From: an uncultured bacterium
Lineage (GTDB): Bacteria > Lernaellota > Lernaellaia > Lernaellales > Lernaellaceae
NCBI GenBank assembly: GCA_964511015.1
Contig: CAZEDX010000020.1
Location: forward strand, 1-59,317
Length of the DNA stretch: 59,317 bases
Reading direction: 5' to 3'
This document shows, one piece after another, positions 1,526-36,791 of this stretch; the stretch's first letter is position 1; the number at the start of each line of letters is the position of its first letter. A program made the position numbers and the translations under genes. A model generated the notes under the pieces. The model was given only the letters and a program-made list of their open reading frames with translations. It was not told the DNA's origin and did not search any database.

Positions 1526-1527
1526 AA

Positions 1528-5354: not shown

Positions 5355-5431
5355 CGGGTCGTCAATTCGCCGCGTACGTTAGCAAATTACCCCCGCAGCG
5401 GCAACGCAAAACGCGGCGGGAACGTGACGGC

Positions 5432-6844
5432 TCAGGCCTTCGCCAGAAAGGCGAGATACGCGAGGTACGTCGCGTATACGTCGTCCTTATGGGCAATTTC
5501 AAACGGGCTGTGCATCGACAATAGGGCCGTGCCGGCATCGAGGACAGCCGCACCATGGCGGGCAAAAAACAGCGCCACGGTGCCGCCGCCGCCTTCATCC
5601 ACTTTGCCCAGTTCTCCGGTCTGCCAAGGCACTTTGTGGTCCGATAGCAGCTTGCGGATCTCGCCGACGAACTCGGCATCGGCGTCACTGGCGGCGACTT
5701 TGCCGCGGGCGCCGGTGTATTTGGTCAGGCAAATGCCATGGCCGATCAGCGCCGCGTTTTTCTTGTCGTGCACGTCTTGCCAATCCGGATCGATCGCCGC
5801 GTTCACGTCGGCCGAGAGCACTTTTGTGCGCGATAGAGCGCGACGAATGGCGCGCTCCGAAGTCTTGCCCTCGCGGGCCAAGAGTTCGCCGATGAAGTCC
5901 AACAGAAAGCGGCCTTCGGCGCCGGTGCTACCGCTCGAGCCGATTTCCTCTTTGTCCATGAAGACCGAAACCGCCGTGCGATTGGGTTGCTTGTCGAGCC
6001 CGAGCAGCGCATGTAGACTGGCGTATGCGCAAATGCGGTCGTCCTGCCCGTAGGCGCCGATAAATGCGCCGTCGAGCCCGACATTCCGTGCCGGGCCGGC
6101 CGGCACAACCTCCAACTCGGCACTAACGAAATCGTCTTCCACCAAGCCGTATTTCTCATGGAGGAGACGCAGCACGTTGAGTTTGATGCGGTCCTTGCCG
6201 TCATCCTTGTTGCCGAGTGGATAGCCGCCGATCAACACATTGAGTTTCTCGCCCGGAATGGCGTCGGCCATTTTCTTTTCCGCCTGAGCCTTCGCTGCCA
6301 GATGGGGCAGTAGATCCAGCACCGTGAAGCAGGGGTCGTCCGCGCCTTCGCCGATGGCCACCTCGACACGAGAACCATCTTTGCGCACGACCACGCCGTA
6401 GATCGCCAACGGACGAGCCACCCACTGGTGTTTGCGGATACCGCCGTAGTAATGTGTCTTGAGCAGCGCGAGGTTGAGGTCTTCGTAGAGCGGATTCTGC
6501 TTAAGGTCGAGACGCGGCGAATCGATATGGCTGACCACCAGATTGACGCCATCTTCGACCGAGGCCTTGCCGACTCGCGCCAGACCGATGCATTTGCCGC
6601 GATAGTTCAGCAACAGCTTGTCGCCGGCTGCCGAGCCGAAATCCACAAAGCCGGCCGCGCGGGCCTGGCGCTCGATCTCGCTGACCGCTAGGCGTTCGGT
6701 TTTGGCAATATCCAAAAACGCACGATATTCGCTACAAAAAGACTCGATCTTCGCGCGAACCGCCGGGGCGAATTGATCGTGGGCCAATTGCGGATTGTGC
6801 GCCAGTTTTTTTTTGGCTTGTTCGTAAGCTTTGCTCTTCGGCAT
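5432..6844 (-). CDS. M18-family aminopeptidase (aminopeptidase 1 / aspartyl aminopeptidase-like)
   Basis: 470 aa. M18 hallmarks: LVVSHIDSPRLDLK, FMDKEEIGSSGSTGAEG, DEGGGGTVALF, LSMHSPFE. Confidence 0.7.
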   Translation of the reverse strand: MPKSKAYEQAKKKLAHNPQLAHDQFAPAVRAKIESFCSEYRAFLDIAKTERLAVSEIERQARAAGFVDFGSAAGDKLLLNYRGKCIGLARVGKASVEDGVNLVVSHIDSPRLDLKQNPLYEDLNLALLKTHYYGGIRKHQWVARPLAIYGVVVRKDGSRVEVAIGEGADDPCFTVLDLLPHLAAKAQAEKKMADAIPGEKLNVLIGGYPLGNKDDGKDRIKLNVLRLLHEKYGLVEDDFVSAELEVVPAGPARNVGLDGAFIGAYGQDDRICAYASLHALLGLDKQPNRTAVSVFMDKEEIGSSGSTGAEGRFLLDFIGELLAREGKTSERAIRRALSRTKVLSADVNAAIDPDWQDVHDKKNAALIGHGICLTKYTGARGKVAASDADAEFVGEIRKLLSDHKVPWQTGELGKVDEGGGGTVALFFARHGAAVLDAGTALLSMHSPFEIAHKDDVYATYLAYLAFLAKA

Positions 6845-6904
6845 GGTCCCCTCCGTGCCACACGGGGTTAATTGAAGGAAGCGTGGTCAGATTATCGCAA
6901 GCGG

Positions 6905-7843
6905 CTACCTTTTGCCACCCTTGCGGCCCCACAGGTTGCGCCAGAAACCGCCGCGGCCGGCCTCTTCGAGCGCCTGGCGAATTCGTGGCAATGCCTCTTT
7001 GGCCGCCTCTTCGCCAAGTTCAACAATGCGCTGCGCCGCGGTAAAATCTGCCCAGTGAATCTTGCCCACCGACGGTGTAATCACGGCGTCGGCGTCGGAA
7101 AGTTGTAGGGCGATCAGTGTCTGTTTGGTGATTTCCTGGGTGCGGAAGTAGATTTCCAGACCACGCCGCATTTCGGGCGGATGAAGCAGCTCGTGGCTGA
7201 CATTGCTGGCGATCACGATATCGGCGCCCATCTCGCGCACTACACTGACAGGCACCATATTGACCACTCCGCCGTCGATGCACTCCACGTCGCCGACCTT
7301 GATCGGCGGAAACGCACCCGGTACCGCGCTGGACGCCGCCACGGCATCGATGACCGGACCGCGGGTAAAGACGATCTGGCGAGCGTTCATCAGGTCACAA
7401 GCCACTACGGCCATGGGAATGGCCAGACCGCGGATGTCGCGATCGTCGACGAACGCACGCAACATCTCGAACAGGTCTTCCCGGTCGAGAAAGCTGGGGC
7501 GGGTTACCGAACTGCCGATAATGAGTCCGCGGCGCACGACATTCGACACCGACTCCAGGAAGCCGACGTCTTCCTCGCTGCGTTTGAGAAAATGGATTTT
7601 CGACTCGGTGAATGCCGGGTCGGTGAAGTAGCGGTTCATGCGTTCGATCAGCTTATCGACCCGCGGGGTGGCGCAGTACATGACGCCGATCAATGCGCCC
7701 ATGCTGGTGCCGGCTACCAAGTCGATCGGTACATGTTCGCGTTCGAGTACACTGAGTACACCCAGGTGGGCCAGACCGCGAGCCGCGCCGCCGCCCAAAG
7801 CCAATCCCACTCGGAACCGTCGCTTCACTTTATTGTCCGACAT
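6905..7843 (-). CDS. Patatin-like phospholipase (RssA-like)
   Basis: 312 aa. Glycine-rich oxyanion loop GLALGGGAARG, serine hydrolase motif GTSMG (GxSxG), catalytic Asp in IDGGVVNMVP. Confidence 0.8.
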   Translation of the reverse strand: MSDNKVKRRFRVGLALGGGAARGLAHLGVLSVLEREHVPIDLVAGTSMGALIGVMYCATPRVDKLIERMNRYFTDPAFTESKIHFLKRSEEDVGFLESVSNVVRRGLIIGSSVTRPSFLDREDLFEMLRAFVDDRDIRGLAIPMAVVACDLMNARQIVFTRGPVIDAVAASSAVPGAFPPIKVGDVECIDGGVVNMVPVSVVREMGADIVIASNVSHELLHPPEMRRGLEIYFRTQEITKQTLIALQLSDADAVITPSVGKIHWADFTAAQRIVELGEEAAKEALPRIRQALEEAGRGGFWRNLWGRKGGKR

Positions 7844-8342
7844 CCGGCATTGGCACCTGCCAGGTTTGGGAGTTGATGTTCGTCCAACCTACCACGCGCC
7901 AGACGCCGTCACGGCGGGCCCATTGAAGGGTAATGTTCTGAAAGGTGTAGGCCTGCCGGTCGGGCAGGTTCTGACCGAGCGAAGAGGCCCGCGTGGCCTC
8001 GCCGTTGGCGTGAAACTTCGTCGTCGCCTGATCGCCTTTGATTTCGATGCGCAGGTCGAGGAAACGCAGGTTGATGTCTTTCCAGCTATCCATGCTCGCT
8101 TGGATGATCGGCAGCCATTGTTCCTTAGTGAAACCGAAACCATCGCGGAAATCGTCGGCCATGATCGCCGAGATCGCCGCCATGTCTTGTTTCTCCACCG
8201 CCTCGCGCGCTTGAAACAGCGCCCGTTTGACGCGCGCTGTCGGGCTTAGAAAGCGGAAATAGGCGAAACCGCCGGCGAAGACGAGCAGAATGGCCAGTAC
8301 CACGATGCGATTGCGGCTCATGAGCTTAGTGACACCCCGCAC
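7830..8342 (-). CDS. Hypothetical membrane-anchored protein (NTF2/SnoaL-like fold suspected)
   Basis: 170 aa. N-terminal TM helix (IVVLAILLVFAGGFAYF) then a soluble domain. No confident family assignment. Overlaps its neighbours by 14-17 nt. Confidence 0.4.
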   Translation of the reverse strand: MRGVTKLMSRNRIVVLAILLVFAGGFAYFRFLSPTARVKRALFQAREAVEKQDMAAISAIMADDFRDGFGFTKEQWLPIIQASMDSWKDINLRFLDLRIEIKGDQATTKFHANGEATRASSLGQNLPDRQAYTFQNITLQWARRDGVWRVVGWTNINSQTWQVPMPDVGQ

Positions 8343-8547
8343 AGGAAGAGCGGGAGCAACTTGAGCAACTGCTGGCGGACGACTTGGTCACCGCGCCGTC
8401 GCTGCCGGTAGATCGGAACGCAAAGCCGGACATCAGTTTGACCACGTTGTCCGCGCCACAATGCGGACAGGTTGGCTTTGTATCGCCGCGGACCAGCTTT
8501 TCAAAGGTCTTTTCACATGCGCGGCAGCGGTATTCGTAAATCGGCAT
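8326..8547 (-). CDS. FmdB-family zinc-ribbon protein
   Basis: 73 aa. MPIYEYRCRACEKTFE ... CPHCGADNVVKLMSGF is the classic FmdB/TIGR02605 CxxC...CxxC pattern. Low-complexity Ser/Cys tail. Confidence 0.7.
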   Translation of the reverse strand: MPIYEYRCRACEKTFEKLVRGDTKPTCPHCGADNVVKLMSGFAFRSTGSDGAVTKSSASSCSSCSRSSCAGCH

Positions 8548-8559
8548 CGGTTGCCCCGT

Positions 8560-8880
8560 TTACTGCAGGCTCATCGGTGGTTTGGTCTTGCGCACCGGCT
8601 TGCCGTCGCTGGCCAGTTCGAGGTCTTCCAGAAAGCGCGCGCGACAGGCCGGGCATAAAACAAGACTGACTTCCATGTGTACCTGGTCTTCGATCGATTT
8701 CTCGTCGAGTCCCGCCAACTGTTCCAGCAACCGGTCTTTCGTGCGTTCGTCCACGTCCATGTCGGGCAGGTAACCGTCCCAGTCGGAGGTGATTTCGATG
8801 CGCACATTGTACTTGGTGGCCCCCAGCGGCAATTCCACGTTGCAACGATCGCAGTACTGGCTGGCAAACGCCGACTTCAT
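8560..8880 (-). CDS. Hypothetical zinc-ribbon protein (CxxC...CxxC), translationally coupled to selA
   Basis: 106 aa. CDRC ... CPAC cysteine pairs. ATG at 8880..8878 overlaps the selA TGA at 8879..8877 (ATGA overlap). Confidence 0.45.
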   Translation of the reverse strand: MKSAFASQYCDRCNVELPLGATKYNVRIEITSDWDGYLPDMDVDERTKDRLLEQLAGLDEKSIEDQVHMEVSLVLCPACRARFLEDLELASDGKPVRKTKPPMSLQ

Positions 8881-10298
8881 TGCTCCTCCGGCTTTCCACC
8901 AGTTAACGCTTCCACCATACTATTGTGGAAAAGCGTCTCTTCACCGTCAAGGATGGTGCGCGGATCGGCAATGATCCGGTCGTCCTCGATGCGCACGATG
9001 ATCGGTGTCGCCAGATTACGCAGCCGGGTGGTCAGGTCGGTAACCGAAGCCGTGGCCGGCCGGATCGCCAACACCGGGCCGGGCAATTCCGTAAGGGGCA
9101 GCGCGCCACCTCCTACCTGGGCCGTGCTATGGGCCAGAGAGACATCCGCTGCAGCACCAATAGCTTCGCGCAACCGGTTCGCCATGCGTTCCGCTTTTTG
9201 CTGCAACGAGGTCTCGTCCAACGACAACATGTGTAGGGTCGGAATCGCCGCGACGGCGGCATCGGGGTCGCGATACAGGCGCAACGTGGCTTCGAGCGCC
9301 GCCAAGGTCATCTTGTCCAATCGTAGCGCGCGGTGCAGTGGATTGCTTGCGCAAGCGCGGATCAGATCTCGCCGCCCGACCAGCACGCCGGCCTGCGGGC
9401 CACCCAGTAGCTTGTCGCCGCTGAAGGTAACCAGATCGAGGCCGTGGGCCACCACTTCCGCTGCGGTTGGTTCGGCCGGAAGACCGAAGCGGTCGATGCT
9501 CAGTAGCGAACCGCTGCCGAGGTCTTCGATGCTCACCACCCCTCGGCGCCGCGCCAGCTCCGCCAGTTCTGCGCCGGACACCGCGGTGGTGAAGCCCATG
9601 ATGCGGTAGTTGCTGGAATGGACCTTCAACAGCGCCGCGGTATTAGGGCCGATGGCCGCTTCGTAGTCGAACGAATGCGTGCGGTTGGTGGTGCCGACCT
9701 CCACCAGTCGGGCGCCGGACTGCATAAGCACGTCGGGGATGCGGAAGCTACCGCCGATTTCCACCAACTCGCCTCGACTGACCACGACCTCTCGGCCCGC
9801 CGCGACTGTCGCCAGAGCCAGCAAGACCGCCGCCGCATTGTTGTTGACGACCAATGCCGCCTCGGCCCCGGTCAACTCACATAACAGTCCTTCGACCAAA
9901 TCGTCGCGATGTCCGCGTTGGCCGGATTCAAGGTCGTATTCCAGATTCGAATAGCCCTGCGCGGCAAGCACGACCGCAGTCACCGCAGAGGCGGCGAGAG
10001 GCGAACGGCCGAGATTAGTGTGCACGATCACGCCGGTGGCGTTGATGACCCGTTGTAGGCGAGGCTCGGAAGCTCCCGCGGCGCGGCGGCGAATCGCCTC
10101 GTATAGGGCGGCCTGGTCGATCTGGCGGATCTGGCCGCCGAGAATGCCTGCCCGCAGGTGGTCGATCTCGTTGCGGATCGCTCGCACCACGAGCGTTCGC
10201 GGGTGTTTTTCACGCACGTCGGCCAGGGCGGGGTCGGCGATCAGTTCCCCGACAGCCGGCAACATTCTGAGCAATTGCGATTTGTCGTCCTTTGCCAT
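8877..10298 (-). CDS. selA: L-seryl-tRNA(Sec) selenium transferase (selenocysteine synthase) SelA
   Basis: 473 aa. N-terminal SelA_N region, a PLP fold with the FSGDKLLGGPQAG lysine motif, and overall SelA-like sequence throughout (INATGVIVHTNLGRS, SNLEYDL). Confidence 0.9.
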   Translation of the reverse strand: MAKDDKSQLLRMLPAVGELIADPALADVREKHPRTLVVRAIRNEIDHLRAGILGGQIRQIDQAALYEAIRRRAAGASEPRLQRVINATGVIVHTNLGRSPLAASAVTAVVLAAQGYSNLEYDLESGQRGHRDDLVEGLLCELTGAEAALVVNNNAAAVLLALATVAAGREVVVSRGELVEIGGSFRIPDVLMQSGARLVEVGTTNRTHSFDYEAAIGPNTAALLKVHSSNYRIMGFTTAVSGAELAELARRRGVVSIEDLGSGSLLSIDRFGLPAEPTAAEVVAHGLDLVTFSGDKLLGGPQAGVLVGRRDLIRACASNPLHRALRLDKMTLAALEATLRLYRDPDAAVAAIPTLHMLSLDETSLQQKAERMANRLREAIGAAADVSLAHSTAQVGGGALPLTELPGPVLAIRPATASVTDLTTRLRNLATPIIVRIEDDRIIADPRTILDGEETLFHNSMVEALTGGKPEEQ

Positions 10299-17802: not shown

Positions 17803-19188
17803 TTACTGTTCCGTGATCAAGACATCGATGCGCGTATTGCGCGCCCGACCCTCGGGCGTGCCATTTGGCGCCACCGGCACATCCGAACCCATGCCGATGG
17901 CCACCATGCGCGAAGCGTCGACGCCTCGTTGATAGAGGTATGCGAGCACCGCATCGGCGCGCGCTTGCGTCAGCTTCTGGGCGTCAGCGATGTCCGTCGC
18001 AACATGGCTTTCGATTTGGATCTTGACCTTCGGGTACTGCTGCAAAATCGCCGCCAGCTCGTCGAGCATCGCTTGATCGTCAATGGTTAAGACGGCGCTC
18101 TGTGCGCTGGCAAACGAAACCGGACGGGGCAGCACGAACCAGTCGCGCAGCATTAGCACGCCACTCGGACGGCGTACTATGACCGGATGCGAGACACCTT
18201 CCGGATCAGTGTAGGTATCCGGCGGCGGCGACGGCGGCAGCGGTGGCGCTGGAGCCACAGGCGGCAACGGCAGCGTCGCGGGCGGTGGAGGCGGTCCGTG
18301 CCTCAGTTTCGGATAGGAGAATGACACACCGGCGATGACCCGGTAGGTTGGACTGCCGATGGCCGTCGTGATGCCGAGTCCGCCGGCTAGGTGGAAATTG
18401 ATGCCGACCGGCGTATAGAAGCGGGCGCCCGCCAACGCTTCCAACGGTGCGCCGGCTTCGATACCATCGATTTGGTAGTCGACCGTCTTGCCGACAAACT
18501 CCCCGGTCAGGCCGAACCATTTTGCGATCGCGGCATGAACGCCGAAGCCGCCAAATACTTGACCCGCTGGTTCCAGGTCTTCCGGCTGACCCATGTAGCG
18601 GTAACCGACATTCATCACGAAATTGACCAGGCTCACGCGTTTGTCGAGAATCAGCGCAACCGACAAATTGGTCGCGTCCGCGCCAACATAGTAGTCAGGG
18701 TCGCCGGTTGCGAAAGAGCCCAGCACCACCAGGCCCAAGCCGACCGAGCGCGGTTCATTGTGTAGAAAGCGGATTTTCGCGCCGGCAAAAGCGTCGCCGA
18801 GCGCAGTACCTGACTCATCCTCGGTTTCCGACAAGCCAGAGATGCGGAAGGAGTCCAGATCCTGGCCGGCTACCATGTTGTAGCTACCGCCGGCCATCAG
18901 ATCCATCACCTCGAACAAACCGACCGCGCCATAGAACTGCGCAGCGCTGAGGCTGTCCACTACATTCAAGGTTTCGTCATAGTCTTCATATTCGAAACGC
19001 AGTGGTCCGCCGGCGGCATTGGCTTGCATGCCGAGTGCGAACTGCCCAAAGGCGAGGGGATCGCTGACATACAACGAGAATAGATTCTGCGGTCCCATGG
19101 CCGGCTGGACGTTCTGGATGTCGATGGCCCACGCTACCGATGCCGTCAACAACACCAGCAACGGAACCAGGATGAGGGCGCGTTTCAT
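17803..19188 (-). CDS. OmpA-family outer-membrane protein with Pro-rich linker
   Basis: Start refined to MKRALILVPLLVLLTASVAWA (signal peptide, RBS GAGGAG). ORF-track start 19308 is an upstream extension. N-terminal beta-rich domain, a PPPPPATLPLPPVAPAPPLPPSPPP linker, and a C-terminal OmpA_C peptidoglycan-binding domain (TDIADAQKLTQARADAV...NTRIDVLI). Confidence 0.7.
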   Translation of the reverse strand: MKRALILVPLLVLLTASVAWAIDIQNVQPAMGPQNLFSLYVSDPLAFGQFALGMQANAAGGPLRFEYEDYDETLNVVDSLSAAQFYGAVGLFEVMDLMAGGSYNMVAGQDLDSFRISGLSETEDESGTALGDAFAGAKIRFLHNEPRSVGLGLVVLGSFATGDPDYYVGADATNLSVALILDKRVSLVNFVMNVGYRYMGQPEDLEPAGQVFGGFGVHAAIAKWFGLTGEFVGKTVDYQIDGIEAGAPLEALAGARFYTPVGINFHLAGGLGITTAIGSPTYRVIAGVSFSYPKLRHGPPPPPATLPLPPVAPAPPLPPSPPPDTYTDPEGVSHPVIVRRPSGVLMLRDWFVLPRPVSFASAQSAVLTIDDQAMLDELAAILQQYPKVKIQIESHVATDIADAQKLTQARADAVLAYLYQRGVDASRMVAIGMGSDVPVAPNGTPEGRARNTRIDVLITEQ

Positions 19189-19202: not shown

Positions 19203-21488
19203 CTAGCGCTTGCGCCGCAGGGCGAACATAGTCAAAAGGGCAAAGAGCATCGGCAGCGCATTCGGCCAGTTGCCGTGTGCGCCGGAGCCAATACCACACT
19301 CGCCGCAAAGCTCTTCATCATCATCGTGGCCAATGTCGGGACAGCAGGTAGGCAGGTTGAGCATCTGCTGCGACGAACCACGGCCGCCGTTTGAGTCAAG
19401 CACCGTGAGAGTCACGGTCGCCGTGCCGTCGCCGCGGTAGTAGTGCGTAACATTTTTGCCCACGCCGGTGTAACCGTCACCGAAATCCCAGTAGTAACGG
19501 AGCGTAGCTCCTTCGGGATCAACCGAAGACGAGGCGTCGAAATCCCAGAGGCGGCTGTCGTCTGTTGTTTGTGCCGCGTCGAAATCGGCCGTCGGAGGCT
19601 GGTTGTCGACTTTGGGTCGTGCGGTAAACATGGTACGCACCTGGTTTTCCTGCGGCACCGGAATAGCGTCGTCTACCGATTCCGCGCCATCAACCGGCGC
19701 TTGCACGTACAACACAACGCGGCCATTTTCACCGAGGCCGACGTCCTTGATCGATACCGTCTGGCGCTTGTTTTCGTTGATGATTTCGTAGCCAGTGGAA
19801 ATGCCCGGCAGATAGAATTCAAGGTTAGCCGTCATGCCGGTCGGCAATCCGTTGACCACCGTGATCTGGGCGATTTCGGTTTTGCCGTCGTTGTTCGATT
19901 CCACCTTCCAGAAGTTGCCGGCCGGGATGCTCTGCCGGTTATCCACCTCATCCATGTAGTTGAGACTGGTCAGCACGTCGCCGGCGGCCTCGACCACTCG
20001 GTAACCGTCGTAGGCGCCCGGGATATCGCACGCCGAACCGAACGAAGTGGTCTGCACGAAGGTAATTGCGTCTTCGGCAACGAGGTCTGACACTTCATTG
20101 TCATCGCGATCGACGATGCGATCGCCGGCCTGGAACGACCAGATCCAATCGAAATGGTTGTGACCGAGGAAGATATAAGGCACGTGATAGCGGAGGCAGA
20201 GGCGGAGAAAGGTCGTGCCGGTATTTTGCTGAGGTGTCTCGTTTTCGATGCCGTCATAGATGTTCGAATCCCAAACGTTGGACTCGTAGTTCCAGTACTC
20301 GGTGCCGTCACCGGCGATCGGGTTTGTTGGGTAGGGTTTGTTGGCCGCGTACGGACCGCGCGGGTCGTGGTGCATGAACACGAGCGGTGTTTTGCCTTCG
20401 GCTTCGGCGTCGGCCAGCACATTGGCGACCCAGGCCATCTGTTCTTCGCTTAGGAAGCCACCCCAGTTGTCTACCGGCGAGGCCACGATCAACTTGCCGG
20501 TCTCACGACGCAACGGAGTACCGTCGTAGCTGTTCATCATCACGAAACGGAACTGCCCGACATCGAAGCTGTAATACAAGGGGCCCAGGGTGCGCGCGTA
20601 ATACTCGAGGTTGTCCTGTTTGACCTGGGTTTGCCAGTTCCACCAAGCGTAACCGTCGTGGTTGCCCGGAGCGAGGAACAGCGGGATCTGTGTCCGTTCC
20701 AACACGTGATACGACCACGCCAGTTCGTCGACAATGTTCAAACCCGAAGTCATGTCGCCGGTAAACACGGCGAAATCCGGTTTGAGTAAGGCGAATTCAT
20801 TGTAGATCTGGGTTTCCACCAGGTCCATGCCGATGCGCGTCTGGCCGGCGGTAGGATAGTCATGGTTGTTCAGCTCGTTCTCAAGGCTGTTCGAGCTGAT
20901 ATCGCCGGGCTGAGCATCGGTGAAATGGACGAACTTCAGCGCGCCGCCCATATCTTTCTTCACGCGCACCGACCCTGGCTGAACGTCGACGAACGCCACG
21001 GTCGCCACCTGCAGATGATAGGTGTCGTCGGGAATGCCGTCCGGAATTTCGCAGGTTAGTTGGTAAGTCAGCGAATCGACATCAAACAACACTTCCGCCA
21101 CCGCCAGGTCATAGTTCTGCGCTACCGTATCGCCGACCGTCGCATAGTCGTCGTACGGATTGGCAAACTGGGTGGTCAGACGGATTTGCCACTGGTTCGG
21201 ATCGAGATAGGCCTCGGGGTCATCAAACTTGACAATGACCGTCAGCGTGTCGCCCGGCTCGACGAAAGCGGGAAAGCCCAGCACCGGGTACACTAGGTAG
21301 GCGATGCGCTTGGCAATCGGATCAGTGCTGTTGGGCACCAATGACGAATAGTAGAGTCCGGGCGCGTTGGTAATGTTGTACGGCCAACCCATCAGGCTGT
21401 GGAGGCTGTCCGCTTGCGCGGACACCGTCAGCGTGAGAAGAAGAGCGAGCAAGACCAGCGACCGAGTGATGGAACTGCGCATAAACAC
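19203..21488 (-). CDS. Secreted calcineurin-like metallophosphoesterase with PKD domain and a Cys-containing C-terminal tripartite sorting signal
   Basis: 761 aa. Signal peptide. Metallophosphoesterase motifs (GDMTSG, GNHD, GHNH). PKD domain (RYYWDFGDGYTG). C-terminus is CCPDIGHDDDEELCGECGIGSGAHGNWPNALPMLFALLTMFALRRKR, i.e. Cys/Gly, then a hydrophobic helix, then a basic tail. Confidence 0.7.
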   Translation of the reverse strand: MFMRSSITRSLVLLALLLTLTVSAQADSLHSLMGWPYNITNAPGLYYSSLVPNSTDPIAKRIAYLVYPVLGFPAFVEPGDTLTVIVKFDDPEAYLDPNQWQIRLTTQFANPYDDYATVGDTVAQNYDLAVAEVLFDVDSLTYQLTCEIPDGIPDDTYHLQVATVAFVDVQPGSVRVKKDMGGALKFVHFTDAQPGDISSNSLENELNNHDYPTAGQTRIGMDLVETQIYNEFALLKPDFAVFTGDMTSGLNIVDELAWSYHVLERTQIPLFLAPGNHDGYAWWNWQTQVKQDNLEYYARTLGPLYYSFDVGQFRFVMMNSYDGTPLRRETGKLIVASPVDNWGGFLSEEQMAWVANVLADAEAEGKTPLVFMHHDPRGPYAANKPYPTNPIAGDGTEYWNYESNVWDSNIYDGIENETPQQNTGTTFLRLCLRYHVPYIFLGHNHFDWIWSFQAGDRIVDRDDNEVSDLVAEDAITFVQTTSFGSACDIPGAYDGYRVVEAAGDVLTSLNYMDEVDNRQSIPAGNFWKVESNNDGKTEIAQITVVNGLPTGMTANLEFYLPGISTGYEIINENKRQTVSIKDVGLGENGRVVLYVQAPVDGAESVDDAIPVPQENQVRTMFTARPKVDNQPPTADFDAAQTTDDSRLWDFDASSSVDPEGATLRYYWDFGDGYTGVGKNVTHYYRGDGTATVTLTVLDSNGGRGSSQQMLNLPTCCPDIGHDDDEELCGECGIGSGAHGNWPNALPMLFALLTMFALRRKR

Positions 21489-24645: not shown

Positions 24646-24809
24646 ATCGCCGAAACCGACGGCGACAAGTGAGCCTCGGTCATTCCCGTAAATCGATGTA
24701 CTGCCCCCAAAAAAATCTCAACCTTGTTCTACTTCGGCTGATCTTCGATTAAGTGGTTGTTTCACACGACCAAATAGGGGACGGAAAAAGAACAACAATA
24801 GGGGGATAC

Positions 24810-25418
24810 ATGAAAGCAACTGACTTCGATCTTAGCAAGGAACTGCGTCTTGATCCCGAGACCGGAGTTGCCGTATTTCGCGGTAACCGGCTTGTGGTTT
24901 TAGACGCAGGCGCACTCGGACTTTTGCGCCAACACATCCTGGAACGGTTAGGCTTCGAGACCGCGCGGGAAATCTTCTTCCGTTTCGGTTACCAACACGG
25001 GTATTCCGACTTTTTGCAGATGAAGCTGGCGTACCAGTTCGACTCCGAAATGGACTTGCTGGCCTCCGGTCCGGTCATTCACACTTGGGAAGGGATCGTC
25101 AAGGCGACTCCCACCGAAATCCGTTTCGATCGCCAAACGGGTGAGTTCTATTTCACGGGCGTTTGGACGAACTCGTACGAAGCGGAACAGTTCATTTCCT
25201 ACAACCATCCGGCTCAAGAGGCTGTTTGTTGGTCGTTGACTGGCTATGCTTCCGGCTGGAGTACAGCATTTTTCGGCCGGCCGTTGCTGGCGACCGAACC
25301 CCTGTGTATGGGCAAGGGTGATCCGCATTGCAGTTGGCTGATTCAGCCTGTGGACGCGTACGGAAAAGAAGCGGACCCGTTCCGGAAAGTGTTGAACCAG
25401 ATGCAGGGGGAGAAATAA
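24810..25418 (+). CDS. Stand-alone XylR-N/V4R (4-vinyl reductase-like) sensory-domain protein
   Basis: Refined ATG at 24810 (RBS AGGGGGA). Resembles the effector-binding A domain of XylR/DmpR-type regulators, but lacks the AAA+ and HTH modules. Confidence 0.5.
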   Translation: MKATDFDLSKELRLDPETGVAVFRGNRLVVLDAGALGLLRQHILERLGFETAREIFFRFGYQHGYSDFLQMKLAYQFDSEMDLLASGPVIHTWEGIVKATPTEIRFDRQTGEFYFTGVWTNSYEAEQFISYNHPAQEAVCWSLTGYASGWSTAFFGRPLLATEPLCMGKGDPHCSWLIQPVDAYGKEADPFRKVLNQMQGEK

Positions 25419-25669: not shown

Positions 25670-25742
25670 TAGATCTGCGGGGACTCGAACCCCGAACCAA
25701 CGGATTAAGAGTCCGCTGCTCTACCGATTGAGCTACAGATCC
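25670..25742 (-). tRNA. tRNA-Lys (anticodon CUU)
   Basis: 73-nt cloverleaf on the minus strand: GGAUCUG-UA-GCUC-AAUCGGUA-GAGC-A-GCGGA-CUCUUAA-UCCGU-UGGUU-CGGGG-UUCGAGU-CCCCG-CAGAUCU-A. Anticodon loop has U33, CUU, A37. CCA is not encoded. Position 1-72 is a G-U pair. Confidence 0.8.
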
Positions 25743-26207: not shown

Positions 26208-27176
26208 ATGAAAGCGGTTTGGATCCTCTCCTTCCTGAGTCTCGCAGTCATTCTTTCCGGCTGTGACGTTATTGAAGACATCATCGCCGGTGAAACGGCG
26301 CGCACCATCACCATTCAGCAAGACCTTTTGAATCAGACAACCGAGCGGGCGGCGAGAGGTGTCGACCTGGCGGGCAACGTGGTTGTCACGTCGGGACAAT
26401 CGGGGTCTCTTGCCCCCGTGTCGGTAGGAGACTTGGCCGATGCGATCGACGTGGCGACCGACGGCATGGGTCCGGTGCAGTTCTTCCTGGTCGCCTCGGT
26501 CAGCAACCGCTCTTCTTCGGCAGTAACGATCACCTTCTCGATGTATCCGGAAAACGATTCGTCCGCTCAAGCTGAGATCGTCAGTTTCTCCCTGGGGGCG
26601 TATCAGGCAGCCGGATTCGACACGGCAGTTCTCTCCAACGCCTCGACGGCGCAGATTCACCAGAATCTCAAGTCGGTATTTGATCTGGTCGACGAGGACT
26701 ACACCGTGGTGCCGGTGGTGACCGTGCAAGGCGGCGACGCGAACGGCGTATTGATCAACCAGTATCGCATTTGGACCCCGCCAACCTATCTGCGACGCGA
26801 CACGTTGGCGGGAGACTCGCTACCGGGCGCCGTGGAAATCGACCGCGTGTACGATACCAAACTGCAGGGCGCAATCACCAACGAAGGCTCCGCCCAGACG
26901 CTGGTCCGGATCTATCTAACCGAAGCTGGAGCCGACCAAGAGGCGGTGGACGCCGGTCTGGTGGCGGAAACGATTCTCTCTCCCGGGCAGACGATCCTTG
27001 GCCAAGACATGGTGCTGGAAGGCGCGGAGGACAAGGTTTCCGCCGCGTTCGACAGCTTCGCCGACGGCGCCGATGTCTACTACAGCCTCGTCATGATGAG
27101 CACGAATCAGATCGATGTGTCCAGCGACGACCTGCAACTTTACGCGAAAGTCGAAGTGCACGCGGACATTTTCTGA
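26208..27176 (+). CDS. Hypothetical lipoprotein
   Basis: 322 aa. Signal and lipobox MKAVWILSFLSLAVILSGC. RBS GGAGG. Preceded by an unusually AT-rich 250-nt region. No family recognised. Confidence 0.5.
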   Translation: MKAVWILSFLSLAVILSGCDVIEDIIAGETARTITIQQDLLNQTTERAARGVDLAGNVVVTSGQSGSLAPVSVGDLADAIDVATDGMGPVQFFLVASVSNRSSSAVTITFSMYPENDSSAQAEIVSFSLGAYQAAGFDTAVLSNASTAQIHQNLKSVFDLVDEDYTVVPVVTVQGGDANGVLINQYRIWTPPTYLRRDTLAGDSLPGAVEIDRVYDTKLQGAITNEGSAQTLVRIYLTEAGADQEAVDAGLVAETILSPGQTILGQDMVLEGAEDKVSAAFDSFADGADVYYSLVMMSTNQIDVSSDDLQLYAKVEVHADIF

Positions 27177-27286: not shown

Positions 27287-27952
27287 ATGTCCAATACGAA
27301 ACGCCTCTGGCTGGAATTCGCCATCCTTACCGCCGCGACGCTGGCCGCAGTGCGACTGCTGGCCTTGTTGAACGTGTTCTATCCGCGATGGGCTTCGCTG
27401 GGCGCCACGTTGTTGTGTCTGTTCTTTTTTTGGGTGCCGATAGCACTGATCGCCGTGCGCAAGTTGCCGACAGCGGACTACGGCTTCGACCTGCGGAATT
27501 GGCGAAGCGATATCGGGCGTGGTCTGTTGATCTCCATGGCGATCCTGCCGGCGTTCGCGGTCGGTTACTGGCTCTGGTGGGGCGTGCTCCTGCATCGGCC
27601 GATCCACCCGGGTCTCGGCGCGCCGCTGTTCATTCAGATCGCTGTGCAACTGCTCGCCATTGCCATTCCGGAAGAGGTTTTCTTCCGTGGCTATCTGCAA
27701 ACCCTCGTCGCCCAGGCCTGGCCGGCCAAGAAGCCGTGGCCGCTGGTCGGCGTGGAGGGACCGGCGATCGTCGTAGTTGCCGCCGTGTTTGCCCTGTCGC
27801 ATCTCGACCGCTGGGCGCCGACGCGTTTGTCGGTCTTCTTCCCCGGCCTGTTGTTCGGCCTGCTGCGCGCGCGTTCGAAGTCGCTGGTGCAGCCGGTTGT
27901 CGTGCACACCTTGGCCAATCTCACTATGGTTTTTCTGCAAGGGCGTGGATAG
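27287..27952 (+). CDS. CPBP-family intramembrane metalloprotease (CAAX protease/Abi domain)
   Basis: Refined ATG at 27287; the ORF-track 393-aa form has an Arg-rich spurious extension. Multi-TM protein carrying all three CPBP motifs: EEVFFRGY (EExxxR), FALSH (FxxxH), HTLANL (HxxxN). Confidence 0.75.
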   Translation: MSNTKRLWLEFAILTAATLAAVRLLALLNVFYPRWASLGATLLCLFFFWVPIALIAVRKLPTADYGFDLRNWRSDIGRGLLISMAILPAFAVGYWLWWGVLLHRPIHPGLGAPLFIQIAVQLLAIAIPEEVFFRGYLQTLVAQAWPAKKPWPLVGVEGPAIVVVAAVFALSHLDRWAPTRLSVFFPGLLFGLLRARSKSLVQPVVVHTLANLTMVFLQGRG

Positions 27953-27955
27953 GGG

Positions 27956-28993
27956 CTAGTTGGACACGCCCCGCATGCGCATGAAGATCTTCACCAGATC
28001 GGGATCGAACTGCGTGCCGGCGTTGCGTTCAATAATGCCCAGTGCACGGGATTCGCTCAGGGCGGGGCGGTAAGAGCGGTCGGAGGTCATCGCGTCGTAA
28101 GCGTCGCAGATGGTCATGATGCGCGCGCCAATGGGAATTTGCTGTTCCTTCAGCGAATCCGGATAGCCGTTGCCGTCGTAGAACTCGTGGTGGTGGCGGA
28201 TCATCTTCGATATCCGTTTGAACTGCGGCACCTGCTCCACGATCTTCTGGCTGATCAGCGGATGCGTCTTGATCAGATCGTATTCGTCGCTGGTGAGCTG
28301 ACCCTGTTTGTTCAATACCGATTCGGTGATGCCGATCTTGCCGATGTCATGGAACAGCCCGGCTAGGTGGATTTCTTCGATATCGAACGAGGAGAAGCTA
28401 AGCACCTGCGCCATCAACGAAGCGTTGTCCGCCACACGCCGGCTGTGGCCTTCGGTGTACTTGTCCTTCGCTTCCAACGCGCTGACCAGCGACCGGATCG
28501 TGGAAATGAGTAGCTGCTGCTTCTCCTGGTTGCGCAGACGCAGCGAGAGGGTTTTCTCCTTGATCTGCTTTTCCATATCCATCTGTAGGTCACGGCTGCG
28601 GCCGATCAGCTTGCGTTTCTCGATGGCGCGGTTCACCGAAAGCAACAACTCATAGCTATGGAACGGTTTGCCGATCAGGTCGTACACTCCGGCATCGATC
28701 AGCCGCCGCACCAGTTCGAGTTCCGGGTGGGAGGTCAGCACGATTACGTCGACGCCGTAGCCGGCTTCGCCGATGTAGGTCAAGAGGTTGAAGTTCTCGT
28801 TGCCGCCTAGATGCGAATCCGTGATCAGCAGATCTACCTGTTCGCGGTCGAGAATCTGCGTGGCTTGATCGGTATCCAACGCCTCGAGAACGTCGTAGCC
28901 GGCGGAATTGAGTACGTTTTTAAGGGTATCCAATAAAGGCTGTTCGTCGTGAATCAGTAATATTTTTTCGCCAACGCGTGTTCCGTTTCGCAT
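27956..28993 (-). CDS. Response regulator with REC and HD-GYP (c-di-GMP phosphodiesterase) domains
   Basis: 345 aa. REC domain (ILLIHDEQPLL...DLLITDSHL), HD-GYP domain with HDIGK and HHEFYDGNGYP. Confidence 0.8.
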   Translation of the reverse strand: MRNGTRVGEKILLIHDEQPLLDTLKNVLNSAGYDVLEALDTDQATQILDREQVDLLITDSHLGGNENFNLLTYIGEAGYGVDVIVLTSHPELELVRRLIDAGVYDLIGKPFHSYELLLSVNRAIEKRKLIGRSRDLQMDMEKQIKEKTLSLRLRNQEKQQLLISTIRSLVSALEAKDKYTEGHSRRVADNASLMAQVLSFSSFDIEEIHLAGLFHDIGKIGITESVLNKQGQLTSDEYDLIKTHPLISQKIVEQVPQFKRISKMIRHHHEFYDGNGYPDSLKEQQIPIGARIMTICDAYDAMTSDRSYRPALSESRALGIIERNAGTQFDPDLVKIFMRMRGVSN

Positions 28994-29115
28994 CCTTGCT
29001 CCATCGCCCCAGTATCATCATATCTCATCCGTCCCGCATAGACAATGATCGGCAAAATCAGTGAAATTCATGAGTCGGCAATCGGCAGGCAAGGAAAGAT
29101 GGGGGGTAATGGCTT

Positions 29116-30126
29116 CTAACCACCTATTCTCATTGAAGAAATTGTTTCTTCGTCGACAGGTGCATCCGTAAATGCCTCCTGGCTCACCAAGTCGCCACGA
29201 ACCACCCGTAAGGCGGGATTCTCCCGCGGTTTGCCATAGCGAGCCATGAACCGGAACGCCAGGCCTACGTGCGCCAGGTCGGTGGAATGGACGATAACCG
29301 CCGCCGGGCCGGCCCAGTTTGCCGGTTCGAGGAAGATCCCGGCCGAGTGGCGAAACCGCTCGAGCAGCCGGTTCTCGTTTTCGTTGCGGCTGACGATCAG
29401 CTTGGCGCCGCCGCCGAGGTCGAAATGCCGACCGATGGTGAGCAGTTCCAGATCTTCGTCGCAGATGGTTTCATGTTCGCGCAGCAGTTGTGCCAGGCGG
29501 CGGGCATAACCCGGGTCGGTCAAGAGACAGCCACCGGCCGAGCCCGGCGGGTCGGGAATGCCTAGTCGGGCTGCCAGTTCCATTTGCGGCTGGCGGCTGC
29601 GGCCGGAGAAGTCGAAGAGCTGTTCGCGGTCGATCAGGCCTTCTTGTTCCGGAATGGTCGGCGCCATGTGCTTGGCCGACAACGGCCGCAGCAACCGGCC
29701 GCGCAAACCGCTATGTTTTTCAATCGCCGCCAGCGTGTCCCGCCGCTGGCTCATCGGCCGCTGGCCAAGCACTTCGCCCGTCACCACGAAATCGAAGCCT
29801 TCCGCTGCCATGATCTCGCCCGCGCGGCGCAGCATGAAGATCTTGCAATCGACGCACGGGTTGAGGTTTTTACCGTGCCCGTAGATCGGCGCGCGAATAA
29901 CCTGCACGAACTCCGGTCCGAGCAGCAGTTCGCGCACCGGCACTTCGAGCACCCGCCGCCAGTAGTCCAGCCCGCGTTCGCTGGCGCCGCGCGACACCGG
30001 GCGGATAAACGGCGCGGTGAAGTGCAGGCCGAGCACCTCGACGCCGAGGTTCTTGATCACCTTGGTGGCCAGCACGGAATCCAGCCCGCCGGAAAACATG
30101 GCAATCGCGCGCGCGGTTCGACTCAC
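29116..30126 (-). CDS. ThiI-type tRNA sulfurtransferase PP-loop domain protein (no THUMP domain)
   Basis: 336 aa. PP-loop SGGLDS. ThiI-like catalytic block NPCVDCKIFMLRRAGEIMAAEGFDFVVTGEVLGQRPMSQRRDTLAAIE. Confidence 0.6.
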   Translation of the reverse strand: MSRTARAIAMFSGGLDSVLATKVIKNLGVEVLGLHFTAPFIRPVSRGASERGLDYWRRVLEVPVRELLLGPEFVQVIRAPIYGHGKNLNPCVDCKIFMLRRAGEIMAAEGFDFVVTGEVLGQRPMSQRRDTLAAIEKHSGLRGRLLRPLSAKHMAPTIPEQEGLIDREQLFDFSGRSRQPQMELAARLGIPDPPGSAGGCLLTDPGYARRLAQLLREHETICDEDLELLTIGRHFDLGGGAKLIVSRNENENRLLERFRHSAGIFLEPANWAGPAAVIVHSTDLAHVGLAFRFMARYGKPRENPALRVVRGDLVSQEAFTDAPVDEETISSMRIGG

Positions 30127-30130
30127 GATC

Positions 30131-30868
30131 TCAGTCCTTCACGAAATGGATGAACACTTCCTGGTTGCCTTTCGGGCCGCGGATCGGCGAAAGAACCTGG
30201 CCGGTCGCCCGCAGGCCGATCGCCGACCCAAACGCCGCGATCTTGTCCACACAAGCCACCACGGCCGCCTCGTCGCGCACTACGCCGCCTTTGCCAACCT
30301 GTTCCCGGCCCGCCTCGAACTGCGGCTTGACCAGCGCGACGATTCGCCCGCCCGGCCGCACATGCGGCGCCACCGCCGGCAAGATTAGTTCCAGCGAAAT
30401 GAAGCTGACGTCGATCACCGCGCCGTCGAATTGCGTTCCGCCGAAGGCGTCCGGCTTCAAATGACGGGCGTTGGTCCGTTCGATAGCGGTCACCCGCGGA
30501 TCGTTGCGCAACCGTAGGTCGAGTTGACCGTAGCCCACGTCCACCCCGGTCACGTGTTTTGCGCCTCGCCGCAACAGAAGATCGGTAAAACCGCCGGTGG
30601 ATTGGCCGATGTCGAGCCAGTTCTCGCCGGTCGGGTCGATCCCAAACCCTTCGAGCGCGCCGGTGAGCTTTTCCGCTCCGCGGCTGGCGTATTCCGGCCC
30701 TTGTTTGACACGAAGGTCTGACTCGATATCGATGGCGACGCCGGGCTTGCCCGCTGGTCGGTTGTTCACCAACACCGCGCCGGCCATGATCAGCGCCTTG
30801 GCCTTTTCCCGCGTGGGGGCCAACCCGCGTTCGCACAACAATTGGTCGAGGCGCATCTTGGTCGGCAT
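30131..30868 (-). CDS. tlyA: TlyA-family 16S/23S rRNA (cytidine-2'-O)-methyltransferase
   Basis: Refined ATG at 30868 (MPTKMRLDQLLCERGLAPTREKAKALI is the S4-like N-terminus). FtsJ-type MTase motifs (DIGQSTGGFTD, DVSFISL). ORF-track start 31108 is an Arg-rich extension. Confidence 0.8.
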   Translation of the reverse strand: MPTKMRLDQLLCERGLAPTREKAKALIMAGAVLVNNRPAGKPGVAIDIESDLRVKQGPEYASRGAEKLTGALEGFGIDPTGENWLDIGQSTGGFTDLLLRRGAKHVTGVDVGYGQLDLRLRNDPRVTAIERTNARHLKPDAFGGTQFDGAVIDVSFISLELILPAVAPHVRPGGRIVALVKPQFEAGREQVGKGGVVRDEAAVVACVDKIAAFGSAIGLRATGQVLSPIRGPKGNQEVFIHFVKD

Positions 30869-30870
30869 GA

Positions 30871-32757
<1,887 letters not shown>

Positions 32758-36780: not shown

Positions 36781-36791
36781 GTTTCCGCCCC

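What the first reader, a model, noticed from the sequence alone, without database searches (positions are those of the whole stretch)
19203..19360. Cys-containing C-terminal tripartite sorting signal (MYXO-CTERM-like) on the PKD/metallophosphoesterase
The last ~45 residues are ...CCPDIGHDDDEELCGECGIGSGAHGNWPNALPMLFALLTMFALRRKR. This gives conserved Cys with a Gly-rich patch, a hydrophobic helix, then a basic cluster at the extreme C-terminus. It is the architecture of exosortase/myxosortase-type C-terminal sorting domains. It is not a PEP-CTERM (no PEP motif) and resembles the Cys-dependent MYXO-CTERM class, which is processed by CPBP-family intramembrane proteases. A CPBP-family protease with all three catalytic motifs lies 6 kb away (27287..27952).
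Basis: partly seen in the sequence, partly recalled or inferred. Interest (0 to 1): 0.65.

Follow-up and report, generated by a model that had tools for sequence, protein, structure and literature searches.

The report
Myxosortase-type sorting tail outside myxobacteria
The last ~35 residues of a secreted phosphoesterase are a cysteine-containing sorting tag of the MYXO-CTERM kind, and its likely processing protease (a myxosortase-family enzyme) lies 5.8 kb away; the system is already known, but here it sits in a genome that appears to belong to the uncultivated candidate phylum Lernaellota, not to the myxobacteria.

Summary
ORF 19203..21482 (-) encodes a 759-aa protein: signal peptide, metallophosphoesterase, PKD domain, then CGECG, an 8-residue spacer, 17 hydrophobic residues and RRKR.

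- MYXO-CTERM (TIGR03901) is the tail's best hit, but below cutoff (16-17 bits vs 20). The closest ortholog passes (24.8).
- One Cys is invariant and a second near-invariant across 15 relatives.
- A profile of these tails retrieves unrelated proteins, three of which pass the MYXO-CTERM cutoff.
- Target orthologs and Mrt homologs co-occur wherever this could be checked. The 6-kb proximity is not conserved, so it is not itself evidence.

New points:
- MutS identity and gene order place the organism with Candidatus Lernaella (phylum Lernaellota), outside the lineages where the system was described.
- The target forms a conserved operon with a distant full-length TraB homolog, echoing TraA/TraB.

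Not resolved: whether other proteins in this genome carry the tail.

Verdict: a new member of a known kind, of moderate interest.

The parts
19203..21482 (-). Target gene: a 759-aa secreted metallophosphoesterase-PKD protein with a C-terminal Cys-containing sorting tail
   Evidence: Translation. Pfam Metallophos and PKD_4. Identical to database protein P0001.
21411..21482 (-). N-terminal signal peptide MRSSITRSLVLLALLLTLTVSAQA, with a likely AQA|D cleavage site
   Evidence: Read directly from the sequence. No signal-peptide predictor was available.
20154..20801 (-). Calcineurin-like metallophosphoesterase domain (residues 228-443)
   Evidence: PF00149, 39 bits against cutoff 21.5.
19368..19604 (-). 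PKD domain (residues 627-705)
   Evidence: PF18911, 70.1 bits.
19293..19307 (-). Signature motif CGECG (C726, C729). C729 is the invariant Cys, the predicted site of lipid modification, with cleavage just after it.
   Evidence: C18 of the tail (= C729) is invariant and C15 (= C726) is >=90% conserved in 15 relatives. The TIGR03901 match starts at C726.
19218..19268 (-). Hydrophobic membrane-spanning segment WPNALPMLFALLTMFAL, including the lineage-typical WPNALP start
19206..19217 (-). Cytoplasmic basic cluster RRKR at the extreme C-terminus
27287..27952 (+). Myxosortase-family CPBP intramembrane glutamic protease (221 aa, P0027), the predicted processing enzyme
17803..19188 (-). Operon partner (461 aa): signal peptide, ~290-aa beta-rich domain, Pro-rich linker and OmpA peptidoglycan-binding domain. 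It is a distant full-length homolog of TraB.
   Evidence: PF00691 OmpA. NF033763 TraB is the top hit in all four partners, at 82-130 bits, aligned over the N-domain and OmpA. There is a 14-nt gap with a GAGGAG RBS here, and a start/stop overlap in four ortholog loci.

Best explanation
The tail is a MYXO-CTERM-type C-terminal sorting signal, and the 221-aa CPBP protein encoded at 27287..27952 is the myxosortase that processes it.

Proposed pathway, by analogy with the Myxococcus xanthus TraA/MrtX model:
1. The precursor is exported by Sec through its N-terminal signal peptide.
2. It stays tethered in the inner membrane by the C-terminal hydrophobic segment, with RRKR in the cytoplasm.
3. The invariant Cys of the CGECG motif is modified, probably lipidated by an unidentified enzyme.
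4. The myxosortase cuts just after that Cys and removes the membrane helix.
5. The lipid-anchored phosphoesterase is moved to the outer membrane and cell surface. There the co-translated TraB-like beta-barrel/OmpA protein probably acts as its outer-membrane partner.

Shown here: the tail architecture and its conservation, its similarity to MYXO-CTERM, the family membership, catalytic motifs and fold of the protease, the co-occurrence of the two genes, and the conserved operon with the TraB-like gene.

Inferred only: lipidation, the cleavage site, the export route and surface location, and any physical link with the partner.
For: Tail:
- It is tripartite and sits at the extreme C-terminus.
- One Cys is invariant and a second near-invariant in 15 relatives (14 orthologs at 39-63% identity plus one 29%-identical homolog).
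- TIGR03901 is the best NCBIfam hit (16-17 bits), 9 of 15 ortholog tails hit it, and the closest ortholog passes at 24.8 against cutoff 20.
- The tail profile retrieves four unrelated proteins at their extreme C-termini at E<=1e-3 in 1.84 billion proteins. Three of them pass the curated MYXO-CTERM cutoff.

Enzyme:
- NF040914 myxosortase-core score is 105.6 (cutoff 100), and nine homologs of 35-56% identity all pass (100.5-126 bits).
- The CPBP catalytic residues are invariant.

Co-occurrence:
- Same contig in the window.
- Same contig for ortholog P0002.
- Same assembly and sequencing run at matching coverage (11.9x vs 11.1x) for P0003 and P0034.

Literature:
- The author of TIGR03901 states that the model is short and lineage-dependent. 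He says true members are recognised by position near the C-terminus and an invariant Cys, often two (10.1101/2023.06.07.544157).
- MrtX cleaves MYXO-CTERM in a Cys-dependent way, in vivo and in E. coli (PMC11980579).

The TraB-like partner in a start/stop-overlapping operon parallels TraA/TraB.
Against: - The window protein's own tail scores below the curated cutoff. Some ortholog tails do not hit TIGR03901 at all (P0003) or lean to JDVT-CTERM (P0012, 18.8 bits against cutoff 27).
- The hydrophobic segment carries conserved Pro residues, whereas MYXO-CTERM is described as lacking Pro and charged residues there.
- No second tail-bearing protein was found in the window or in about 175 kb of relatives' DNA. 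This has little power, because M. xanthus has only 35 such proteins in a genome of roughly 9 Mb (my knowledge), about one per 260 kb.
- The Mrt-core score clears its cutoff by only 5.6 bits, and the protein fails every subfamily model.
- Mrt-target proximity is absent from three of the four ortholog loci that show this operon and downstream synteny.
- No biochemical data exist for this lineage.
Confidence: 0.75

Rival explanations
1. The tail is an ordinary, unprocessed C-terminal membrane anchor. It simply holds the phosphoesterase on the periplasmic face of the inner membrane, the cysteines form structural disulfides, and the CPBP gene nearby is unrelated.
For: The tail is subthreshold for every curated sorting-signal model. 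No other tail-bearing gene was seen in about 235 kb. The CPBP gene is not conserved next to the target. Four Cys within 17 residues (CCPD...CGECG) could pair as disulfides.
Against: A plain anchor does not need an invariant Cys at a fixed distance before the helix across 39-63% identity orthologs. The profile of the tail retrieves bona fide MYXO-CTERM proteins. A myxosortase-core enzyme is present in every genome or assembly where this could be checked.
Confidence: 0.12
2. The tail and the Mrt form a dedicated one-enzyme, one-substrate system of the JDVT-CTERM/MrtJ type. In that case the Mrt is not a general housekeeping sorting enzyme with many substrates.
For: Only this protein family carries the tail in all clade DNA examined. 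4 of 15 ortholog tails give weak JDVT-CTERM hits, the best at E=4.6e-4. Enzyme and substrate are within 6-7 kb in two genomes (window).
Against: JDVT pairs are immediately adjacent two-gene units. Here housekeeping genes (L21, L27, Obg, ManC, a tRNA) intervene, and linkage is lost in three of the four ortholog loci with this operon. The window tail has no JDVT-CTERM hit. The MrtJ model scores 58.4 against cutoff 75, whereas Mrt_core passes. The amount of DNA surveyed is too small to show that there is a single substrate.
Confidence: 0.15
3. The tail is a substrate of a different sorting enzyme, such as an exosortase, rhombosortase or archaeosortase-like protein, encoded elsewhere in the genome.
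For: There are weak PEP_CTERM (13.6-15 bits, cutoff 16) and, in one ortholog, GlyGly-CTERM (12.6 bits, cutoff 15.5) hits. Both cover only the helix and basic end.
Against: There is no PEP or GlyGly signature motif. Those weak hits do not include the Cys motif. None of the window ORFs scanned hit an exosortase or rhombosortase model: 10 ORFs were scanned against both NCBIfam and Pfam, 10 against NCBIfam only and 25 against Pfam only. The conserved feature is the Cys, which is the hallmark of the myxosortase-processed classes.
Confidence: 0.04

Closest known systems
MYXO-CTERM / myxosortase MrtX of Myxococcus xanthus (TIGR03901; NF040593; Guo, Haft & Wall 2025, PMC11980579)
   Same: Signal peptide plus a C-terminal Cys motif, helix and Arg/Lys cluster. 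The enzyme is a CPBP glutamic intramembrane protease with the conserved myxosortase core. The cargo is a predicted surface hydrolase, as many MYXO-CTERM proteins are.
   Different: The tail has C-G-x-C-G rather than the GCGC typical of the family, and a conserved Pro-containing WPNALP start to the helix. It scores below the curated cutoff. The enzyme is 221 aa and fails the MrtX model (108.7 bits against 180). The host lineage appears to be Lernaellota, not Myxococcota.
MrtP of Bradymonadales (NF040674) and MrtC of Chondromyces (NF040594)
   Same: MrtP is the best-scoring full-length model (151.8 bits). The size matches MrtC (221 aa).
   Different: It fails both cutoffs (250 and 195). It matches MrtP in two separate stretches and, at 221 aa against a 354-position profile, it cannot hold MrtP's ~100-residue central domain.
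JDVT-CTERM / MrtJ two-gene systems of beta- and gammaproteobacteria (NF033191, NF033192)
   Same: A Cys-containing tripartite tail processed by a myxosortase-like CPBP, possibly with few substrates.
   Different: JDVT has a single Cys and a near-invariant DP before the helix, and its enzyme and substrate genes are adjacent. Here there are two Cys and no DP, the genes are 5.8 kb apart or unlinked, and the MrtJ model is not passed.
TraA/TraB outer-membrane exchange pair of M. xanthus (NF033763 for TraB)
   Same: A MYXO-CTERM-type cargo gene is followed by an overlapping or abutting gene for a protein with an N-terminal beta-rich domain (TSP3 repeats in some orthologs) and an OmpA domain. TraB is the top NCBIfam hit for the partner, with alignment spanning nearly the whole profile in one ortholog.
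   Different: Scores of 82-130 bits are far below the 700-bit TraB cutoff. The cargo is a metallophosphoesterase-PKD enzyme, not a PA14-type TraA receptor. There is no evidence of membrane exchange.
Eukaryotic/archaeal Rce1 CAAX protease (MmRce1, PDB 4cad) and S. aureus SpdC (6u0o)
   Different: Sequence identity is only 16%. The substrate is a membrane-spanning tail in the periplasmic orientation, not a cytosolic CAAX box.

Membership tests
MYXO-CTERM sorting domain (TIGR03901.2) | HMM score at or above the curated cutoff (20 bits) | tested here: inconclusive
   The window tail scores 15.7-17 bits, below cutoff. The closest ortholog P0002 scores 24.8 (pass) and P0029 scores 19.6. 9 of 15 tails hit the model. 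The model's author states that it is short and lineage-dependent, and that membership needs review and lineage-specific models.
MYXO-CTERM sorting domain (TIGR03901.2) | Located at the extreme C-terminus, with a signature motif, then a hydrophobic helix, then an Arg-rich cluster | tested here: met
   CGECG, 8 residues, WPNALPMLFALLTMFAL, then RRKR and the stop.
MYXO-CTERM sorting domain (TIGR03901.2) | Invariant Cys in the signature motif, often with a second nearby Cys | tested here: met
   C729 is invariant and C726 is >=90% conserved in 15 relatives.
MYXO-CTERM sorting domain (TIGR03901.2) | No Pro or charged residues in the transmembrane helix | tested here: not met
   P740 and P744 lie at the N-terminal edge of the hydrophobic segment. 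ALP / WPNALP is conserved in the closest orthologs. No charged residues are present.
MYXO-CTERM sorting domain (TIGR03901.2) | N-terminal signal peptide on the same protein | tested here: met
   MRSSITRSLVLLALLLTLTVSAQA|D, read from the sequence. No predictor was run.
MYXO-CTERM sorting domain (TIGR03901.2) | Several unrelated proteins per genome carry the domain (3-73 in the described species) | tested here: inconclusive
   Only the target family carries it in the 59-kb window and in about 175 kb of relatives' loci.
MYXO-CTERM sorting domain (TIGR03901.2) | Co-occurrence with a myxosortase in the same genome | tested here: met
   Same contig in the window. Same contig for P0002. Same assembly and run at equal coverage for P0003/P0034. 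The genomes of P0005 and P0006 could not be assessed.
MYXO-CTERM sorting domain (TIGR03901.2) | Cys-dependent C-terminal cleavage, and surface anchoring | not testable with these tools
   This needs biochemistry. It has been shown only for M. xanthus TraA/MrtX (PMC11980579).
Myxosortase family (NF040914 Mrt_core) | Score at or above the curated cutoff (100 bits) on the conserved core | tested here: met
   P0027 scores 105.6 bits. Nine homologs score 100.5-126 bits.
Myxosortase family (NF040914 Mrt_core) | CPBP catalytic motifs EExxxR, FxxxH and HxxxN | tested here: met
   E129, E130, R134, F168, H172, H207 and N211 are invariant in 20 sequences.
Myxosortase family (NF040914 Mrt_core) | Rce1-like multi-helix membrane fold | tested here: met
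Named myxosortase subfamilies MrtX / MrtC / MrtP / MrtZ / MrtJ / MrtS | Equivalog or exception model cutoff | tested here: not met
   Scores against cutoffs: MrtP 151.8/250, MrtC 115.5/195, MrtX 108.7/180, MrtZ 67.1/325, MrtJ 58.4/75, MrtS 75/130.
PEP-CTERM / exosortase | Pro-Glu-Pro signature motif and TIGR02595 cutoff (16 bits) | tested here: not met
   There is no PEP motif. The score is 13.6-15 bits, over the helix and basic part only.
JDVT-CTERM / MrtJ | NF033191 cutoff (27 bits), a single Cys, a DP motif, and an adjacent MrtJ gene | tested here: not met
   The window tail has no hit. The best ortholog scores 18.8 bits. There are two Cys and no DP, and the enzyme is 5.8 kb away or unlinked.
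TraB (NF033763), for the operon partner | Curated cutoff of 700 bits | tested here: not met
   Scores are 82-130 bits. The alignment does cover the N-terminal domain and OmpA (residues 19-561 to profile 17-498 of 522 in L089). The partner is therefore a distant homolog, not TraB.

The most novel reading that the evidence does not exclude
Candidatus Lernaellota, a candidate phylum known only from metagenomes, has its own lineage-specific version of the myxosortase sorting system. It comprises a short, unnamed Mrt subfamily and a CGxCG/WPNALP tail variant that current annotation models miss. The system is coupled to a TraAB-like two-gene cassette whose cargo is a surface phosphoesterase and not a kin-recognition receptor. 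That would mean the MYXO-CTERM/TraB module is older or more mobile than the 'myxobacteria-specific' label implies. It would also mean that TraB-type proteins are general outer-membrane partners for myxosortase-sorted cargo.
Probability: 0.35. Interest if true: 0.55.

Novelty: new member of a known kind. Interest (0 to 1): 0.4.

Why it matters
MYXO-CTERM and myxosortase were described as confined to Myxococcota and the Bradymonadales, and the tag has been called myxobacteria-specific. A clear instance in a genome that groups with Candidatus Lernaella would extend the system's range.

It would also show that the curated tail model under-calls divergent lineages, since this tail is not called by the current model (it scores below the curated cutoff). 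It adds a roughly 220-aa Mrt form that no subfamily model covers.

The conserved pairing of the cargo with a TraB-like protein gives a second, simpler context, an enzyme instead of a recognition receptor. That context could be used to ask what TraB-type partners do for myxosortase-sorted proteins.

None of this changes the known mechanism. It is an extension of it, not a surprise.

Tried and rejected
- Genome scan: the single genome-contig scan with the full protein was swamped by generic PKD-domain matches from many phyla. It gave neither the source genome nor orthologs.
- Exact look-up of the window protein's contig found nothing. Cluster look-ups carried no organism names. The rest of this genome could therefore not be surveyed.
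- Search for further tail-bearing ORFs: a heuristic and a tail HMM run with all filters off over about 235 kb of clade DNA found only the target family. I treat this as uninformative, not negative.
- P0099, a 3073-aa hit with 20 matches to the acidic-CGxCG part of the profile, is a junk translation of repetitive DNA ('LLCGDCRAGVEQSFSARP' repeats). I discarded it.
- The unrelated tail-bearing hits P0101 and P0103 sit on contigs of 0.7-3 kb. Their downstream genes are not TraB-like: P0103's is a tandem paralog, and P0101's is an unrelated Cys-rich protein fragment. They say nothing about this lineage.
- I considered gene proximity of Mrt and target as evidence and rejected it. The Mrt's conserved neighbours are the RR-HD regulator, ThiI/NFACT-R, FtsJ and DXS. 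The target's conserved neighbours are the TraB-like gene, an aminotransferase and a carbamoyltransferase. The two blocks are adjacent only in the window and its closest relative.
- No T2SS genes were seen in the window, so the export step could not be examined.
Full report
**Observation.** It has:
- a signal-peptide-like N-terminus, MRSSITRSLVLLALLLTLTVSAQA;
- a calcineurin-like metallophosphoesterase domain (PF00149, residues 228-443);
- a PKD domain (PF18911, residues 627-705);
- a tail reading CCPD, HDDDEEL, CGECG, IGSGAHGN, WPNALPMLFALLTMFAL, RRKR, stop.

Three other stop-to-stop frames in the window met the filter (hydrophobic stretch plus basic end; Cys was not tested), and all are overlapping spurious frames or lack the pattern, so this is the only genuine gene with it.

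**Is the tail a conserved feature?** A homolog search found about 15 orthologs at 39-63% identity. All full-length ones end in the same kind of tail. In an alignment of 15 tails (14 orthologs plus one 29%-identical homolog), one Cys is invariant, and a second, three residues upstream, is conserved in at least 90%. The rest of the tail is only 21-57% identical to the window's. The upstream CC pair is not invariant. Selection therefore acts on the CGxCG cysteines at a fixed position before the helix, which a plain membrane anchor would not need.

**Curated sorting-signal models.**
- Against NCBIfam, the window tail's best hit is MYXO-CTERM (TIGR03901) at 15.7-17 bits, with a cutoff of 20. PEP-CTERM is second at 13.6-15 bits (cutoff 16), and it covers only the helix and basic end.
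- Nine of the 15 ortholog tails hit MYXO-CTERM. The closest ortholog (P0002, 63% identity) passes at 24.8 bits and another reaches 19.6.
- A few orthologs lean weakly to JDVT-CTERM (at most 18.8 bits, cutoff 27) or hit nothing.
- The author of TIGR03901 states that the model is short and lineage-dependent. He says true members are recognised by being near the C-terminus with an invariant Cys, often two (preprint 10.1101/2023.06.07.544157). Those criteria are met.
- One described trait is not met: the absence of Pro from the helix. The closest orthologs share a WPNALP start to the hydrophobic segment.

**Does the tail occur on unrelated proteins?** A profile of the 15 tails was searched against 1.84 billion representative proteins and gave 11 hits at E<=1e-3. 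Six are orthologs or their fragments. One is a junk translation of repetitive DNA. Four are unrelated small proteins, matched at their extreme C-termini, with GCGC- or CxC-type tails. Three of these four pass the curated MYXO-CTERM cutoff at 26.5, 32.5 and 35.2 bits. The tail of this family is therefore linked by profile similarity to bona fide MYXO-CTERM domains.

**The protease.** The CPBP gene starts at the ATG at 27287 and encodes 221 aa.
- It passes NCBIfam's myxosortase-core model NF040914 at 105.6 bits (cutoff 100), and nine homologs of 35-56% identity all pass.
- When that model was built, it found only Myxococcota and Bradymonadales proteins among about 14,000 representative proteomes.
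- The protein fails every named subfamily model (MrtP 151.8/250, MrtC 115.5/195, MrtX 108.7/180, MrtZ, MrtJ, MrtS). It therefore represents an unnamed short form.
- The CPBP catalytic residues (E129, E130, R134, H172, H207, N211) are invariant in a 20-sequence alignment, together with an FFPGLLFG-LR block.
- Sequence searches and Foldseek searches of PDB failed.

**Linkage and co-occurrence.** In the window the two genes are 5.8 kb apart on opposite strands, separated by housekeeping genes including Obg and ManC, plus a tRNA. The locus of the closest ortholog has the same layout. In the genome of P0003, the Mrt homolog P0034 is on another contig of the same assembly and sequencing run, at matching coverage (11.9x and 11.1x). 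The loci of P0005 and P0006 have no CPBP within 10 kb.

The Mrt's own conserved neighbours are the RR-HD regulator, ThiI/NFACT-R, FtsJ and DXS (window 27956-32757). Proximity is thus not evidence. Co-occurrence holds in three of three assessable cases.

**The operon partner.** Fourteen bases after the target's stop, behind a GAGGAG site, starts a 461-aa gene (17803..19188). It encodes a signal peptide, a conserved beta-rich domain of about 290 aa, a Pro-rich linker and an OmpA domain. In four ortholog loci its start overlaps the target's stop, and three of them carry added TSP3 repeats.

The top NCBIfam hit for all four partners tested is TraB, the outer-membrane exchange protein. The alignment reaches across the N-terminal domain and OmpA: residues 19-561 align to profile positions 17-498 of 522, at 129.9 bits, in one ortholog. 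That is far below the 700-bit cutoff. The partner is therefore a distant homolog, not TraB.

In M. xanthus, TraA carries a MYXO-CTERM tag and its ORF overlaps traB (PMC11980579). The parallel supports the sorting-signal reading and suggests that the partner acts with the mature cargo at the outer membrane. That last step is inference.

**Organism.**
- The window's MutS is 84, 74 and 75% identical to MutS proteins on contigs of the same lengths as those carrying target orthologs P0002, P0003 and P0005, so presumably the same contigs.
- It is 72% identical to a 'Myxococcales bacterium' MAG protein from the same sequencing run as Mrt homolog P0035.
- It is 70% identical to Candidatus Lernaella stagnicola.
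- Identity then drops to 58% or less for assorted Desulfobacterota-type MAGs.
- Candidatus Lernaella belongs to the candidate phylum Lernaellota, formerly FEN-1099.
- The gene order SelA, patatin, M18 peptidase, MutS, one further gene, integrase is shared with the Lernaella contig.
- The paper that named the phylum does not mention CTERM signals or sortases.

The placement rests on one marker plus synteny, so I hold it at about 0.8.

**Mechanism.** The working model for M. xanthus is as follows:
1. Sec export.
2. Tethering by the C-terminal helix.
3. Modification of the invariant Cys.
4. Cleavage by the myxosortase.
5. Transfer to the cell surface.

The components that can be seen in sequence are all present here. 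Lipidation, the cleavage site and the export route are inferred.

**What remains open.** I could not reach the rest of this genome. No further tail-bearing gene appeared in about 235 kb of clade DNA. M. xanthus has 35 such proteins in a genome of roughly 9 Mb (my knowledge), about one per 260 kb, so this absence carries little weight. It leaves a dedicated single-substrate system as a live alternative.

**Verdict.** This is a new member of a known kind of system, with three modestly new aspects: a host outside the described range, an Mrt that fits no named subfamily, and a TraAB-like cassette with an enzyme as cargo.

Noticed in passing
window 17803-19188 (-); L081 12295-14004; L083 12295-13665; L089 12298-13989; L096 12289-13980: The gene downstream of the target encodes a signal peptide, a beta-rich domain, optional TSP3 repeats and an OmpA domain. 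Its best curated match is TraB (82-130 bits, cutoff 700), aligned nearly full-length in one ortholog. Its start overlaps the target's stop in four loci. This gives a TraA/TraB-like cassette with a phosphoesterase as cargo.
   Followed up: partly
window 2718-5354 (MutS) and 635-10298; L091, L092: MutS identity (70% to Candidatus Lernaella stagnicola, then a drop to 58% or less) and the shared SelA-patatin-M18-MutS-integrase gene order place the window with candidate phylum Lernaellota (FEN-1099). Related MAGs are labelled 'Myxococcales bacterium' in NCBI.
   Followed up: partly
window 27956-32757 (-); L085, L087: The Mrt gene's conserved neighbourhood is a convergent response-regulator/HD-domain gene, then ThiI/NFACT-R, FtsJ-like and DXS genes. 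This arrangement is kept in relatives even where the target is elsewhere. A second RR-HD paralog sits at 57769-58881.
   Followed up: partly
window 26208-27176 (+): A 322-aa predicted lipoprotein (MKAVWILSFLSLAVILSGC...) lies directly upstream of the Mrt gene and has no Pfam or NCBIfam match. A family-less gene of similar size (317 aa) lies in the same interval in L083, separated from the Mrt gene by the FokI-domain insertion.
   Followed up: no
L083 3693-5075: In the closest relative, a gene with a FokI cleavage domain is inserted between the Mrt gene and the lipoprotein gene. It is absent from the window.
   Followed up: no
window 24753-25418 (+) vs L081 6170-6805 and L089 5770-6399: Next to ManC the window has a XylR_N/V4R-domain protein (221 aa), on the same strand as ManC. 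Relatives have a gene of similar size (209-211 aa), also on ManC's strand, recorded as ATC_hydrolase. The two were not compared directly.
   Followed up: no
window 33173-39470 (-): A run of glycoside hydrolase genes (GH92-like, GH1 beta-glucosidase, GH31-like alpha-xylosidase/glucosidase). This is consistent with the polysaccharide-degrading lifestyle inferred for Lernaellota.
   Followed up: no
window 25670-25742 (-): A single tRNA gene is the only Rfam match in the window at gathering threshold.
   Followed up: no
L093 21-793; L094 16-944: Tandem small Cys-rich secreted proteins from bioreactor-type JGI metagenomes each end in a GCGC, helix and basic tail. They were retrieved by the tail profile, and their organism is unknown.
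   Followed up: partly
L091 1-2344: The Candidatus Lernaella stagnicola contig carries a Cas9 gene at the point where synteny with the window breaks, just beyond the Band_7 gene.
   Followed up: no
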